A stretch of 64,000 nt of DNA, from assembly GCF_037042905.1 (NCBI RefSeq), contig NC_087253.1:2108001-2172000 (forward strand), in the 5' to 3' direction. Positions 29,601 to 35,600 of this stretch are shown piece after piece (position 1 is the first letter of the stretch; every line of letters begins with the position of its first letter). The position numbers are program-made. Source of the DNA: Lytechinus pictus. Its lineage: Eukaryota.

Positions 29601-32600
29601 TAGGACGTTGCATTTAGCGATTAATTGCTAACCATTGTGTAACCGGGCCCATGTCAACAATTAATGACCTTTTCTTTGAGCTATACTTCCGACAAAAAAG
29701 TAGGTAAATGCCCGGAAACCTCCAAAATGGTTCACTCCACGTTCAGCACCAGTTATAGCCCTTCAATTTGTCAATACGTGTCACAGCATTTGACGATTGT
29801 TCATATCTCGTATAATTGATTGTTTTGGGGTAACATGGTAAGTTATTGCTTATACGTTTGTATCGAAAGTAAATTGTGATCAGTTATTGTAAGTCCCCAA
29901 ATAAATAATGATTCTTGTATAATTGCATATTTTCCATTATTGGCTGCGTGCTTCGAGTGTACTTAATGATTTTTCTTCATATTTTTTAAACGGATTTATA
30001 TACTGAAGTAAAAATAGATTTATCAATTGCTAAATTACAAGTCATAATTGCATTCAATCACACATTGATTTCCTGCTGCGGGTCACTTTAGCTTATTCGC
30101 CTCAGTTACACTGACACGAAAGTGCATTTTTAGCACGGGCTGGTGCTAAAATTATACTTATCGATATCTTTGAAACCACACCAAGTTTGCAACCGATTGC
30201 GACAATTTGTTGAATGCATTTCATTTTAATCAAACCGATTCGAAATAATTACAAAGATTAAAATAATGACGGATGTAATGCGATTTTCATCATGTTTCAA
30301 AAGTGTAACATGACTTAAAACATAAACGACCGAGCAAGTACAACAGAATAGTTTAGTGACTTAATTCAATAAGAGATATGTCGGTGTTAATCTTGAATTA
30401 TACTTGACATTGTCTGCGTGACAGAATTTAGAAACGAAACTTAAAACTGAACGTATAATATTTCTCGTAAACAGGTGGATCAATTGACGAAAGAGCAGAT
30501 TGAAGGTAGGAATCTGATTCCCTTTTTTTATTTACTATTTCATGTGATTCCGTTTTATTTTTCAAGAACCTTGTAAGTTGTAAGCTAATGAAACATTTAA
30601 GAGAACAAATTTATGTTGCAGTTGAATTATTATGACATTTGTATCGGGAAGGGGGTGGGCATAGGCAGTCGATGGCGGAGAACTGGAGGACCCCAGAGGG
30701 GTGTGGCAGGCCTCTTACATACACTTTTTTTTTTTCAAATTCCCCTTCCCCTAACAGATAAAAAAAATATCTCGCGTATTGCCATTATGTTACGTATATA
30801 CAGTGGTGTTCAAAAGTTCGTGAATCCCACCAGAAAATGAATGTGTTCAAGTTCTGCCATGCTTTTAGATATTCAATTGTGAAGTCAGGTGATAAAATAC
30901 ATTCAATAAAGTTTGTTTCTCCAGGCTCGAAGAACATTGTAGTGTCGTTGTTTACATTCAACTGTTCAACAATCAGCCTGAAGAAGTCCATTTTGTGATG
31001 AAGTTCACTAACTTCTTACCACAACTGTACATGTTGGAGCTCTGCAGCAGAATTTCTCTTACTAGGTTTCAACACCAATACAAGCACTAAGCTTGATCAC
31101 TCACTGGTTAGTCTTGTCCCCGGAGGCGCGTAGCCAGGGGGGGGGGGTGGTGGGGGCGGTCGCCCCCCCCAAAACGTCCCCAAAAAGAAAAAAAAAGAAG
31201 GGAAAAAAGAGGGGAGAAAAGGAAAAGGGAAGGGAGGAAAGGGAAGAAAGGTAGCTTTGTGTTTTTTTTTTCTTTAATTTTTTTTTCTCAAAAGAGAAAC
31301 TCCTTCTCTCTTGCTCTAAATTTATATATGAATTTTGCTTCCGCGCGGCGCGCGGTTAAATGATAATATTGAAGTTCTCCATTGTTTCCCCCACCCTTTC
31401 TCTAACCCTGTTTTTCCACCTCAGCTATATGTGTTTCTTGCCAGTTAAAGTTCAAATGTATACATTAGGGCATATAATTAGAGTAAGGTTAGGCCGAAGT
31501 ATATGAAGTTATCTTTTTTTTAATTGATTGCGCAACTTCTGGACGGGTCGGCCCTAGGCGGGTAAAATCTTTATATCAATTTCTGCCGTCACCTCCATAA
31601 AGTCAACTTCTCCTGCTTTTCAGCTCATTACTAAACAACCATAATTTGGGGGCAAACAGGTTCCTAATTTGAAAAGAGGAAGGTATAAAATTCGTGTCGT
31701 ATTAGATAATAAAGTACAATATTTATTATCAAATTCTATTAAACTTCATGTCATTTCCCTGCACATTCATCTCCTGTCCTGTTTTGCGCACTCAGTTTGA
31801 AATTTTGAATGACACTTAGGGTTCTTTATAATTCAAAATGAAGCGCTTCAGGATAAGTCAAAGAAATTAGGCATCCTTTTTTATATAATTTCAATGAATC
31901 ACAGAAGTTTCAACTTTTTGCGCACTATTTTCCTTGTAATGAAGTTCAATAATCTTAGAAAATCAATCGAATTAGACCCGATGGGGTATTAGAGATATGA
32001 TGAAACGTCCGCCCTTTGAAACTTCAGAGTTTCATTGCTCTGCGCGGGGAGGAATATCTTCCTCCCGGCATATACACTTCTTCTCCTCTGTTTTGCGAGT
32101 TATGCACTGTCGCTAAATTGTTTGTAATCAAATCTGATCTTTCCAAGGGAAGTATTCAATATATCTTTGAAAATACCCTTTTATCGGGACTCATGGCAGA
32201 AAAAAATTGAAAAAACGCTTTAGCTTCCGCGTGAAGCGTGGTTATTATTTTTTAATTTCCTCCATTTTATTCCCTTTTTATGCGTTCGCTCACAATCACT
32301 TTTGAAAACAAGGTTCATGAAAAAAAGGTTAAAAATCACAATATTGTCAACTGAATTGGAGGTGATATAGGTACTAGTGACAAGAGAGACGGCTCCTTTT
32401 CATTTTGATTTATGAAACACCAAAAGCTTCGCGCTTCGCGCGGGAGGGGGAAACTCCCCCTCCCTGCATCCACCCCCTAGGGAGCGCGCTTCGCGCGCTC
32501 TGTAAGTGTTGGCACGCTTCGCGTGCGATTACCGCCGCCTCCAAAATGAAATCCTGGCTACGCGGTTGCGGGGGGGGGGGGGCACTTCCATTGACGAGTG

Positions 32601-35600
32601 GATACCATGCGCGACCATGGGGTCTCGAAAAGCACCCTAAACAGATATTTCCCATATACTGAAAATGCACCCCTTAACAAGTATTGGCGTGGGGGCGTGT
32701 GAAACCATACCCTTAACAATTAAGTATTGGAAACAAAACGATACCCTTAGCAAGTATTCCCTGAAATAAACCCTTAAACAAGTACAGGAATATTTCATTG
32801 TTATGCCACGGGTCCTTCGGTCGTTGGTTTTACCTTAATTTACACATCATTTGGTTTAGTACGACCCCACCTTCCACACCTCGTGTAAATCGGACTCTAA
32901 ACACGTAGTGTTGGGGCAAAAAGGACATCCGTTATAAAACATTTTAATTTTGTTTTATCATCCCCGCAAATTTGACCCTAAACTCGTAACTTTTCTAGCG
33001 AAATAGATACCCTTTTTTCATTATTTTGGTGTTTTTGACACCCTTATCACGTTACGTACGTAACGTGCCCTATCTTGAAAAAGACATCCCTTTTACGTGT
33101 TTTTTGGTCGCGCATGGTATCCACTCGTCAATGTAAGTGGCCCCCCGGGGTCTTGTCAGGACTTGGAGGCTACACTAAAACAAGTACGACCTTCTTCCAA
33201 TAATCATGATATTCAATGTTCTCTATTAACAGAATACAGAGAGGCATTCGCCATCTTTGACAAGAACGGCGACGGTATCATCACAACCAAGGAACTGGGA
33301 GAAGTGATGACGTCATTTGGGGAATTCCCGAATGAAGGGGAGCTGAGAGAAATGGTTAACGAGATCGACGTTGATGGTATCATACAATATTGTATACCAT
33401 GTTTAGTATACTTATTTCCAAATATTCCGTCAAACTCTATACGATGAACATTAATTGTGGGTTCACTTGATAGTTACCAACGTGAGTTATAAAAAGTAAG
33501 CCTCTAATGTTTATAAATTTTCTTTCATCCACTTTGTTTCTATGACCTTTCGGATAAAACAAACTGAAATAAAACGCCCGACAAACCATGTCATGAAACG
33601 CTCCCTTGTTGAATGCCATTATATATCCTACTACCGAGACTATCCTTAAACCAAGAGGCTGAACTTGCTGGCGTAATTCCTCCGTTCAAAATTTTATGGC
33701 AAACCATTTCCATCGCTTTCATTATCGGTTCCATATATCACAGAGTTCGAACAAGCATTCTTGTAATGATTAATGACAATTTGCAATCCAATTCTCTTTT
33801 TTTTTTCGATAAAGGAAACGGTGAGATCGATTTTGCCGACTTTCTTTCCTTGATGGCCCGACCTATCACCGATGTACACACGGAACAAGAAATCAAAGAG
33901 GCTTTTAGAGAATTTGATAAGGACGGTGATGGATTTATAAGGTAAGGTCAATGTCTCATCTGTACACTTCCAACCCATGATTCTTCGTGTCTACCAGCAG
34001 TTGGCTTACTTCCCAAATCGTCTTATACCATGTTTACCGCATGGGCTAAATCACCTTGGTCTACTACCAATGTTAAGATTGAAACATTTGAAAGATTTGA
34101 ACGAAGAGATACATAATTTCGTTATTTTATGTTACTGTTACATTATTTTCAATTTGCCCCTACTGTCTCAGATATGCGACCGTGTCCTGGGCTCTCTTTC
34201 TTATGTCTAATTCAATGTATAAAATGTATCTGTAGGCCTACTGTTAATTTCAACGTTTCCTTTATTGCATTTCGTTCAATAAAGTAACGCAAAACAACCG
34301 TTGATCGTGCTAAATCATGTAAACCTATCCTATAATTTACAATCTGATACATAACTTAAAAAAGGAACCTAAGGTTATTCATTAACATATGCTTGTACAC
34401 TGTCTCTGCATTACGCAAGTGTTACAGATTTCCGTAACGTGATGACGACGGTCGCCGATACCCTGACTGAAGAAGAGCTCGAGGAGATGATTGAGGAGGC
34501 TGACGCTCACGGCCAAGGTCAGATCAACTACGAAGGTAAGACATTCATTGAGATATTTCGATATCTATATTTTAATTAACAGTGAATGTGAGAGTTTCGT
34601 AGCGGTTCCGACTCTCACCTTGTAATCAGAGGGTCGTGTGTTGTAACTCCACAACGACCTAGCCTAAATCCGCACTTTGCCACTTTTCACCCACGTGTTG
34701 GTACCCGTTAGGAAGCGAAAGCCTATATGTGCATAATTATAGTATGCCTACCAACGTGTAATGACCTATCTCGTCTTTTCTGATGGTGAAAATGACGAGT
34801 TTACATAATTAAGTTACAAAAGTAACCTAATTGAATAGCGCCACCTGTAGGAAATGATGTGAAATGCCGTGCAAAATTTGGAATCCAAAATCGACTCATT
34901 GTTGGTAACGAAATTTGGGGGATGAACAAGACTAGTAATCTTGTATAAAGTAAGCAAGAACTCGGAACGCAAGCTAGGAGGGGAGAGTATTCACCATGCA
35001 TGCTTCACCCGCGTCAGTTATTAAGCTACAAAAACAAAATCTTATTTATGATTTCTGCTAAAAATAGACTTCCAGTTTATGTAGTGATCGGCCGATAGAA
35101 TATGTCTAAAAAGTACAGCTCGCGAGCGCTTTATGTTCACATTATAGGTATTATGGTATCAAAGAAATAAAGATCTTGGGGAAAATGCACTTACACTCAC
35201 AAGTATATCAAAAGTAGACAAATAATAATTGCCTTAATTGATCTCAAAATTGTGTATCACCTTTTTGCCCATTTTTCTTTCTTTCTTTTTCATCATCAGA
35301 TTTTGCAAAGACTATCGCAGAAATGTGAGGAGATACACTCGGTTACACATTCATTACATTGGATGGAAATCCCTCGTTAATGATGATCTAAGAATGTTCA
35401 TCTGGATGCGAACTCTCATTATTGACTGCATGTGGTACTTAGCGTACCTTTCTTAAAGGACAAGTCCACCCCGACAAAATATTGATTTCAATAAAAAGAG
35501 AAAAGTTTAACAAGCATAACATTGAAAATTTCATCTAAATCGGATGCAAAACAAGAAAGTTATGACATTTTAAAGTTTCGCTTAATTTCACAAAACAGTT

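What the first reader, a model, noticed from the sequence alone, without database searches (positions are those of the whole stretch)
29835..35328. Calmodulin paralogue with systematic Glu12->Asp in EF-hands 2-4
Seen: loops are [12 protein letters not shown] (canonical), [24 protein letters not shown] and DAHGQGQINYED (also loses positions 3 and 5). The linker has Pro (MARPITDV), and the trimethylated Lys115 context (LGEKL) is replaced by VADTL. Length is exactly 149 aa with no indels. Established: Asp at loop position 12 lowers Ca2+ selectivity in favour of Mg2+ and weakens Ca2+-driven opening. Inference: a functional, retuned sensor, such as a single-site Ca2+/Mg2+ sensor or a constitutive motor light chain, rather than a pseudogene.
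Basis: partly seen in the sequence, partly recalled or inferred. Interest (0 to 1): 0.65.

Follow-up and report, generated by a model that had tools for sequence, protein, structure and literature searches.

The report
Sea urchin calmodulin-like gene, retuned
This is an intact six-exon sea-urchin gene for a calmodulin-like calcium-binding protein that several sea urchins share; only one of its unusual calcium-site changes is conserved among them, so it is a real but fairly ordinary member of a known kind of protein.

Summary
Window 29835-35328 (+) carries a six-exon, all GT-AG gene of 450 coding bases. Its exon translations match, piece for piece, a 149-aa RefSeq protein, 'calmodulin-alpha-like [Lytechinus pictus]'. 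It aligns with calmodulin without gaps at 87-88 of 149 identities. Position 12 of the four loops reads E, D, D, D.

The 'systematic' pattern is not conserved. The S. purpuratus orthologue (137/149) reads E, D, E, D and the Diadema orthologue (110/149) reads E, D, N, E. Only the EF2 Asp is shared by all three.

The three proteins form one clade (100/100). They share 30 derived residues and the linker Pro, and none has Lys115. None has an indel or a stop. The N-lobe is better conserved than the C-lobe (12 against 29 variable positions, p = 0.002).

I read it as a functional, echinoid-restricted calmodulin-like protein, not a pseudogene and not a true calmodulin. Ca2+ sensing probably sits in the N-lobe, and the C-lobe sites look weakened and drifting.

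Metal binding, expression and dN/dS could not be tested. Asp at position 12 is already common in calmodulin-like proteins. Interest is low to moderate.

The parts
29835..29837 (+). Exon 1 coding part: the ATG alone, followed by a GT donor
   Evidence: Canonical abalone calmodulin genes also have a first exon that encodes only the start codon (PMC6171432, passage).
30475..30505 (+). Exon 2 (31 nt): residues 2-11 plus the first base of codon 12
33233..33376 (+). Exon 3 (144 nt): residues 12-60. Holds the EF1 loop (33259-33294, Glu12 codon GAA at 33292-33294) and the start of the EF2 loop (from 33367).
   Evidence: Pfam EF-hand_1 E = 2.6e-10. Aligns with calmodulin residues 13-59..
33815..33941 (+). 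Exon 4 (127 nt): residues 60-102. Holds the rest of the EF2 loop (to 33840, Asp12 codon GAC at 33838-33840), the linker Pro76 (33862-33864) and most of the EF3 loop (from 33916).
   Evidence: Pfam EF-hand_1 E = 9.1e-10. Aligns with calmodulin residues 61-101..
34420..34535 (+). Exon 5 (116 nt): residues 102-141. Holds the end of the EF3 loop (Asp12 codon GAT at 34427-34429), Thr116 at the place of calmodulin Lys115 (34460-34462) and the EF4 loop (from 34502).
   Evidence: Pfam EF-hand_7 E = 2.6e-5, 24.9 bits, below the 30-bit cut-off. Aligns with calmodulin residues 103/105-140..
35300..35328 (+). Exon 6 coding part (29 nt). Its first two bases, AT, complete the split codon G|AT, which is the Asp at position 12 of EF4. 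Then come residues 142-149 and TGA.

Best explanation
This is a functional calmodulin-like (CML) gene, so far found only in sea urchins, that arose by duplication of calmodulin. It is neither a true calmodulin nor a pseudogene.

Shown:
- The gene is intact and keeps the calmodulin length and frame.
- It belongs to a three-species orthologue group. The group shares 30 fixed differences from calmodulin, including Asp at EF2 position 12, Pro76, loss of Lys115, M145T and a more acidic C-lobe.
- Its N-lobe is much better conserved than its C-lobe.

Inferred mechanism:
- EF1, canonical and unchanged at its liganding positions in all three species, is the Ca2+-specific trigger.
- Its partner EF2, with the conserved Asp12, is a weaker mixed Ca2+/Mg2+ site that is probably Mg2+-occupied at rest. 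This would raise the Ca2+ threshold and damp opening of the N-lobe.
- The C-lobe sites are weakened or lost to a species-dependent degree. In L. pictus EF3 has Asp12, and EF4 has His3, Gln5 and Asp12.
- The C-lobe therefore probably holds the protein on its partner largely independently of Ca2+, as the lobes of light-chain-type calmodulin relatives do.

Which partner, and which tissue, is unknown.
For: Gene and family:
- Intact six-exon GT-AG model, identical piece by piece to a RefSeq protein.
- All 60 listed PDB sequence matches are calmodulin, and the alignment is gapless. The 50 best fold matches are calmodulin or calmodulin fusions.

Orthologues:
- Orthologues at 137/149 and 110/149, against 87-91/149 to calmodulin.
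- The clade has 100/100 support on a stem of 0.34 changes per site (20 rows).
- There are 30 shared-derived positions (18 in the N-lobe, 12 in the C-lobe). Variable positions among the three number 12 of 75 in the N-lobe against 29 of 74 in the C-lobe, Fisher p = 0.0018.
- L. pictus against Diadema is 64/75 in the N-lobe and 46/74 in the C-lobe.

Loops:
- The EF1 and EF2 loops are identical in all three, apart from one non-liganding residue of EF1 in Diadema.
- EF3 position 12 is D/E/N. EF4 positions 3, 5 and 12 are H/H/N, Q/D/E and D/D/E.

Charge: the C-lobe has 4-5 Lys+Arg against 10 in calmodulin, and the net charge is -29 to -32 against -23.

Literature:
- Asp at position 12 lowers Ca2+ affinity and favours Mg2+ (passages).
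- Androcam is a precedent for a lineage-specific calmodulin paralogue with one degraded lobe that serves as a myosin light chain (PMC4914028, passage).
Against: - No metal-binding, expression or partner data exist for this protein, so the mechanism is read from sequence alone. The plant CML review warns that such predictions often fail (PMC5983762, passage).
- Asp12 sites can still bind Ca2+.
- A conserved Asp12 in EF2 could cripple the N-lobe's opening and so undercut the N-lobe sensor idea.
- Faster C-lobe change could be adaptation to species-specific partners rather than relaxation.
- Only three orthologues were found.
- dN/dS could not be computed, because no collection here holds echinoderm DNA.
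- The AlphaFold model is of modest confidence (mean pLDDT 69.9, pTM 0.38) and says nothing about metal state.
- Of the 7 changes specific to the L. pictus lineage, 2 fall on the 20 liganding positions. That is no more than chance (p = 0.24).
Confidence: 0.5

Rival explanations
1. It is a calmodulin isoform in all but name. All four sites still bind Ca2+ within the physiological range, with shifted affinities, and the protein acts on an overlapping set of calmodulin targets.
For: - Same length, no indels, 58-59% identity, and most hydrophobic pocket residues kept.
- Apart from position 12, EF2 and EF3 are otherwise canonical loops.
- Asp12 sites in other proteins do bind Ca2+, more weakly (passage in PMC6107761).
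Against: - L. pictus EF4 also lacks acidic ligands at positions 3 and 5. Diadema EF3 has Asn at position 12.
- There are 30 fixed differences from calmodulin, including M145T, Pro76 and the loss of five or six basic C-lobe residues.
- It fails the >90% similarity criterion used for true calmodulins (PMC6171432, passage).
Confidence: 0.25
2. It is a constitutive, Ca2+-insensitive subunit, such as a light chain of an unconventional myosin or another IQ-motif protein. Metal sites then serve only a structural (Mg2+) role.
For: - Precedents exist: androcam with myosin VI and CLP with myosin X (PMC4914028, table and passage).
- The ligand positions of the C-lobe drift among species.
Against: - The EF1 loop keeps every canonical ligand in all three species, over what is said to be about 250 million years (listing). 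That argues Ca2+ binding at EF1 is still selected.
- The best sequence matches are calmodulin, not essential or regulatory light chains.
- No partner was examined.
Confidence: 0.12
3. It is a slow Ca2+/Mg2+ buffer of the parvalbumin kind rather than a sensor.
For: Mixed Ca2+/Mg2+ sites with Asp at position 12 are typical of buffers (recalled knowledge). The protein is very acidic.
Against: The clade-specific surface and pocket residues are conserved, which suggests a specific partner. The calmodulin-type two-lobe architecture is kept.
Confidence: 0.05
4. It is a decaying duplicate (pseudogene) or an artefact of gene prediction.
For: - No expression data could be seen.
- A second AG lies 8 nt inside exon 5 (34426-34427). 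If used, it would shift the frame into a stop.
- The exon-5 peptide falls below Pfam's curated cut-offs.
Against: - The frame is open through six exons.
- All three orthologues are 149 aa with no stop or indel, and the N-lobe is 85% identical between L. pictus and Diadema.
- The database fragment P0057 carries the exon 4-5 junction already spliced and then a tail resembling intron 5. That is what a partly processed transcript would give.
Confidence: 0.03

Closest known systems
Canonical metazoan calmodulin
   Same: - 149 aa with a gapless alignment.
- Four EF-hand motifs.
- Exon 1 carries only ATG, as in abalone calmodulin genes (PMC6171432, passage).
- 87-88 of 149 residues are identical to the coral and aphid calmodulins compared.
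   Different: - Glu at position 12 in only 1 of 4 loops.
- EF4 lacks acidic residues at positions 3 and 5.
- Pro76 in the central linker, and Thr in place of Lys115.
- M72L, M145T and M146I.
- Net charge -29 against -23.
- Far below the >90% similarity used to call a true calmodulin.
Its own orthologues: 'calmodulin-alpha' of S. purpuratus (P0005) and an 'uncharacterized protein' of Diadema antillarum (P0006)
   Same: 149 aa, 92% and 74% identity, 30 shared derived residues, the same EF1 and EF2 loops, the linker Pro and no Lys115.
   Different: Position 12 reads E, D, E, D in S. purpuratus and E, D, N, E in Diadema, against E, D, D, D here. EF4 positions 3 and 5 also differ.
Androcam, the Drosophila testis calmodulin-like light chain of myosin VI
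   Same: It is a lineage-restricted calmodulin paralogue in which one lobe no longer behaves as a Ca2+ switch (PMC4914028, passage).
   Different: In androcam the N-lobe is degraded and the C-lobe binds Ca2+ tightly. Here the N-lobe is the conserved one. The two have independent origins, and the echinoid protein's partner is unknown.
Plant calmodulin-like proteins (for example Arabidopsis CML14 and CML36)
   Same: Glu-to-Asp at position 12 is 'very frequent', mixed Ca2+/Mg2+ sites occur, and fewer sites work than there are motifs (PMC5983762, passages; PMC5380670).
   Different: They arose independently and vary in length and number of EF-hands. The echinoid protein keeps the exact calmodulin length.
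EF3 of the CIB family
   Same: Asp replaces Glu at the -Z (12th) position, giving lower Ca2+ affinity and Mg2+ binding (PMC6107761, passage).
   Different: CIB is a different EF-hand family. It serves only as a precedent for what Asp12 does.

Membership tests
EF-hand superfamily, four-EF-hand calmodulin-type proteins | Helix-loop-helix motifs recognised by EF-hand profiles | tested here: met
   Pfam EF-hand_1 gives E = 2.6e-10 for the exon-3 peptide and 9.1e-10 for the exon-4 peptide, both above the cut-off. The exon-5 peptide matches EF-hand_7 at only 24.9 bits, below the 30-bit cut-off. The model shows eight helices and four short strands.
EF-hand superfamily, four-EF-hand calmodulin-type proteins | 12-residue loops with Asp at position 1, Gly at 6 and a hydrophobic residue at 8 | tested here: met
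   All four loops meet this.
True (canonical) calmodulin | More than 90% similarity to reference calmodulin, the criterion quoted in PMC6171432 | tested here: not met
   Identity to coral and aphid calmodulins is 87-88 of 149, that is 58-59%. I computed identity, not similarity.
True (canonical) calmodulin | Four canonical Ca2+ loops with the bidentate Glu at position 12 | tested here: not met
   Position 12 reads E, D, D, D, and EF4 has His at 3 and Gln at 5.
True (canonical) calmodulin | 149 residues, collinear, with Lys115 present. That Lys115 is the trimethylation site is recalled knowledge. | tested here: inconclusive
   Length and collinearity are met. The residue aligned with Lys115 is Thr116 here, so the Lys is absent. 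It is also absent in both orthologues.
True (canonical) calmodulin | Ca2+-dependent activation of calmodulin targets | not testable with these tools
   This needs biochemistry.
Echinoid calmodulin-like orthologue group (defined here) | Groups with P0005 and P0006 to the exclusion of calmodulins, and shares the derived residues | tested here: met
   The clade has 100/100 support and 30 shared-derived positions. In the profile search, 3660 of 5218 candidates passed E <= 1e-20. Of the 120 best listed, only these three exceed 62% identity.
Myosin light chains (essential or regulatory) and other IQ-bound light chains | Binds an IQ motif of a heavy chain | not testable with these tools
   No partner is known, so no complex job was sent.
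Myosin light chains (essential or regulatory) and other IQ-bound light chains | Closer in sequence to light chains than to calmodulin | tested here: not met
   All 60 PDB matches listed for the whole protein are calmodulin or calmodulin fusions.
Processed or decaying pseudogene | Loss of introns, frameshifts, stops or indels | tested here: not met
   There are five introns with GT-AG ends, the frame is open, and there are no indels against calmodulin or the orthologues.

The most novel reading that the evidence does not exclude
Sea urchins carry a natural 'knock-down series' of one calmodulin paralogue. After an old Glu-to-Asp change in EF2, different lineages have removed the bidentate Glu or other ligands from EF3 and EF4 one at a time. 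Position 12 reads E, D, N, E in Diadema, E, D, E, D in S. purpuratus and E, D, D, D in L. pictus. The L. pictus protein would then be a true single-Ca2+-site sensor. Its other sites would be locked by Mg2+ or empty, so it could read the Ca2+/Mg2+ balance rather than Ca2+ alone.
Probability: 0.15. Interest if true: 0.45.

Novelty: new member of a known kind. Interest (0 to 1): 0.25.

Why it matters
If the reading is right, three living sea urchins offer the same calmodulin-sized scaffold with one, two or three of the key Glu ligands replaced. That would make a ready-made comparative set for asking how many working sites, and which lobe, a calmodulin-type sensor needs, and what Mg2+ does to it.

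It also corrects the database name. 'Calmodulin-alpha(-like)' suggests a true calmodulin, which this protein is not. Beyond that, Asp at position 12 and degraded EF-hands are well known in calmodulin-like proteins, so no principle changes.

Tried and rejected
- **Exon-5 search.** I resent it with three more window bases on each side.
- **Cluster look-up.** The accession numbers and the second member of the P0004 cluster stayed unknown.
- **Representatives search.** 48,594 proteins passed E <= 0.001, but the 150 best are all at or below 61% identity. It adds no closer relative. I did not fetch those unnamed hits.
- **Second copy in the window.** tblastn of the three exon peptides found only this gene.
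- **Structure.** The AlphaFold model (pLDDT 69.9) and Foldseek confirm only a calmodulin fold. They cannot tell open from closed lobes or the metal state.
- **Literature on this gene.** Four searches found nothing on it:
  - 20 papers listed;
  - 0 papers;
  - 15 of 631 listed;
  - 7 papers.
  I saw only titles and abstract starts.
- **Directional loss of ligands in L. pictus.** 2 of 7 lineage-specific changes fall on liganding positions, which is not more than chance (p = 0.24).
- **RNA genes.** Rfam and tRNA scans of the window found none.
- **Complex prediction.** I sent no job, because there is no candidate partner.
- **Protein atlas.** I made no call, because the family is known.
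Full report
**What is there.**
- The six coding pieces on the + strand are 29835-29837, 30475-30505, 33233-33376, 33815-33941, 34420-34535 and 35300-35328. They measure 3 + 31 + 144 + 127 + 116 + 29 = 450 nt, and every intron begins GT and ends AG.
- The search with exon 5 returned a 149-aa database protein, P0004, named 'calmodulin-alpha-like [Lytechinus pictus]'.
- Each exon peptide is an exact substring of P0004, and the four split codons give its residues E12, G60, S102 and D141.
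- All whole-length comparisons below use that database record, not a sequence I assembled.
- The window is therefore sea urchin (L. pictus), not human.
- It holds no second calmodulin-like gene, no tRNA and no Rfam match.

**The observation.**
- All details check out.
- The three long exon peptides hit EF-hand profiles. They align in order with calmodulin residues 13-59, 61-101 and 103/105-140.
- The whole protein aligns with calmodulin 1-145 without a gap.
- The loops are [36 protein letters not shown] and DAHGQGQINYED.
- The linker reads MARP, and VADTL stands where calmodulin has LGEKL.
- In the 17 non-echinoid rows I compared, Asp at position 12 occurs in 5 of 68 loops and never more than twice in one protein. 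Three of four is unusual, with a rough binomial probability of 0.0015.
- The Asp of EF4 is encoded by a codon split by intron 5 (G|AT). The Asp of EF3 depends on a single third-position base (GAT, 34427-34429).

**Relatives.**
- A search with P0004 found 309 proteins at E <= 1e-10 among 350 candidates. The S. purpuratus protein 'calmodulin-alpha' (P0005, 92%) and a Diadema antillarum 'uncharacterized protein' (P0006, 74%) stand out. Every other full-length hit is at or below 61%.
- P0057 is a 109-aa fragment that matches 87% over 46% of the query.
- A profile of the three echinoid proteins found 3660 proteins at E <= 1e-20 among 5218 candidates. Of the 120 best listed, only those three exceed 62% identity.
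- The word-free search of 1.84 billion representatives gave nothing above 61% among its best 150.
- In a 20-row maximum-likelihood tree the three form a clade with 100/100 support on a stem of 0.34 changes per site. L. pictus and S. purpuratus are sisters (97/96). The clade's position among calmodulins is unresolved.
- I found no orthologue outside sea urchins, but the databases are uneven.

**What the orthologues say.**
- Position 12 of the four loops reads E, D, D, D in L. pictus, E, D, E, D in S. purpuratus and E, D, N, E in Diadema.
- Only the EF2 Asp is common to all three. The EF4 Asp is shared by the two camarodont species. The EF3 Asp is peculiar to L. pictus.
- EF4 positions 3 and 5 also wander (H/H/N and Q/D/E).
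- By contrast, EF1 and EF2 are the same in all three, apart from one non-liganding residue of EF1 in Diadema.
- Thirty positions are identical in the three yet differ from calmodulin. They include E68D, K76P, M72L, M145T and R127E. Seventy-seven positions are identical in all four.
- Variable positions among the three number 12 of 75 in the N-lobe and 29 of 74 in the C-lobe (Fisher p = 0.0018).
- The proteins are more acidic than calmodulin (net -29 to -32 against -23). Their C-lobes have 4-5 basic residues against 10.

**Is it functional?**
- I could not compute dN/dS, because no tool here holds echinoderm DNA. I could not see expression data either.
- The indirect case is strong.
  - Lytechinus and S. 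purpuratus are said to have shared an ancestor about 50 million years ago (PMC3367398, passage). Diadema is said to have split about 250 million years ago (PMC7299941, abstract start in the listing).
  - Yet all three proteins are exactly 149 aa, with no stop or indel, and the N-lobe is 64/75 identical between L. pictus and Diadema.
  - That neutral DNA would have collected several indels over such a span is my own inference.
- P0057 carries the exon 4-5 junction already spliced and then runs into a tail that weakly resembles intron 5 of the window. This is the form of a partly processed transcript, but its source is unnamed, so it is only a hint.
- One weakness of the model is a second AG 8 nt inside exon 5 (34426-34427). 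Using it would shift the frame into a stop. Conservation of exons 5 and 6 in frame argues that the upstream AG is the one used.

**How it probably works.**
- The literature I read in passages agrees on three points.
  - Asp at the 12th (-Z) position lowers Ca2+ affinity and allows Mg2+ binding, and this residue governs the conformational switch (PMC6107761; PMC5380670).
  - The substitution is very frequent in plant calmodulin-like proteins (PMC5983762).
  - Sequence-only predictions of working sites are often wrong (PMC5983762).
- On that basis I propose an N-lobe sensor.
  - EF1 is the Ca2+-specific trigger.
  - EF2 is a Mg2+-competed partner that raises the threshold.
  - The C-lobe's Ca2+ sites are weakened (EF3) or probably dead (EF4 in L. 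pictus). That lobe would mainly hold the protein on a partner.
- Androcam is the closest precedent for such a division of labour in a lineage-specific calmodulin paralogue, though there the roles of the lobes are reversed (PMC4914028, passage).
- The AlphaFold model is of modest confidence: pLDDT 69.9, eight helices, linker 76-81 below 50. Its 50 best fold matches are all calmodulin or calmodulin fusions. These results fit the fold but do not test the mechanism.

**Family membership and novelty.**
- The protein meets the EF-hand and calmodulin-type architecture.
- It fails three tests for a true calmodulin:
  - identity is 58-59%, against the >90% similarity criterion quoted in PMC6171432;
  - only one loop has Glu12;
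  - there is no Lys115.
- Its gene keeps the calmodulin habit of a first exon that encodes only ATG (PMC6171432, passage).
- I recall, but did not verify, that the 31-, 144- and 29-nt exons match calmodulin genes. The intron splitting the middle 243 nt at 127/116 would then lie at a different place from the vertebrate one.
- It is best filed as a new, uncharacterised member of the calmodulin-like proteins. It is already present in RefSeq under a misleading name.
- Four literature searches found nothing on it (titles and abstract starts only).

**What stayed unchecked.**
- Orthologous coding DNA, and so dN/dS.
- Expression; supplementary tables are closed.
- Any search of the closed metagenome and viral collections, which are unlikely to matter here.
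- A search with a self-joined spliced model, which I left out.

Noticed in passing
window 32576-33146 (intron 2): A pair of 42-nt inverted arms, 95% complementary and 487 nt apart, looks like a small terminal-inverted-repeat transposon (MITE-like). Its right end lies 87 nt before exon 3.
   Followed up: partly
window 35453-36038 and 36280-36459: Two more foldback structures lie just downstream of the stop codon. One has 136-nt arms (82% complementary, 314 nt apart), starts 125 nt after TGA and overlaps an AATAAA. The other has 81-nt arms (85%) with an 18-nt spacer.
   Followed up: no
window 26923-28578, minus strand: A 552-codon open frame matches the Ras-association domain of RASSF8-10 (Pfam PF21712, E = 1.2e-8, above the cut-off). 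Its likely start (about 28563) faces away from the calmodulin-like gene, about 1.27 kb from that gene's ATG. The two genes are therefore head to head and may share a promoter region.
   Followed up: partly
window 34418-34427: Two AG dinucleotides lie 8 nt apart at the exon-5 acceptor. The downstream one has the better pyrimidine context (ttacag) but would shift the frame into a stop after three codons.
   Followed up: partly
protein P0057 (unnamed database fragment, 109 aa): It begins at the Met of MARP, is spliced across exons 4-5, and after INYE continues into about 40 residues that weakly resemble intron 5 of the window. It differs from the S. purpuratus protein at one residue in the shared part. 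It may be an intron-retaining transcript of a strongylocentrotid.
   Followed up: partly
window 31120-31300 and 32430-32580 (intron 2): Long G/C runs and purine-rich low-complexity stretches occur here, with repeated 'gcgcgcttcgcgcg'-type motifs. A 21-nt inverted pair at 31118-31138 and 32553-32573 may bound another inserted element.
   Followed up: no
window 15181-15597 (+) and 50310-50876 (+): Two open frames of 138 and 188 codons have no Pfam match. By eye, their tails look alike (H-Y-x-T-R ... W-N-x-L). They may be remnants of one repeat family.
   Followed up: partly
aphid protein P0317 ('calmodulin-alpha isoform X1', Myzus persicae): This is an otherwise canonical calmodulin whose alternative last exon changes EF4 position 12 from Glu to Asp. 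It shows that the split codon at the last intron lets this ligand be switched by exon choice.
   Followed up: no
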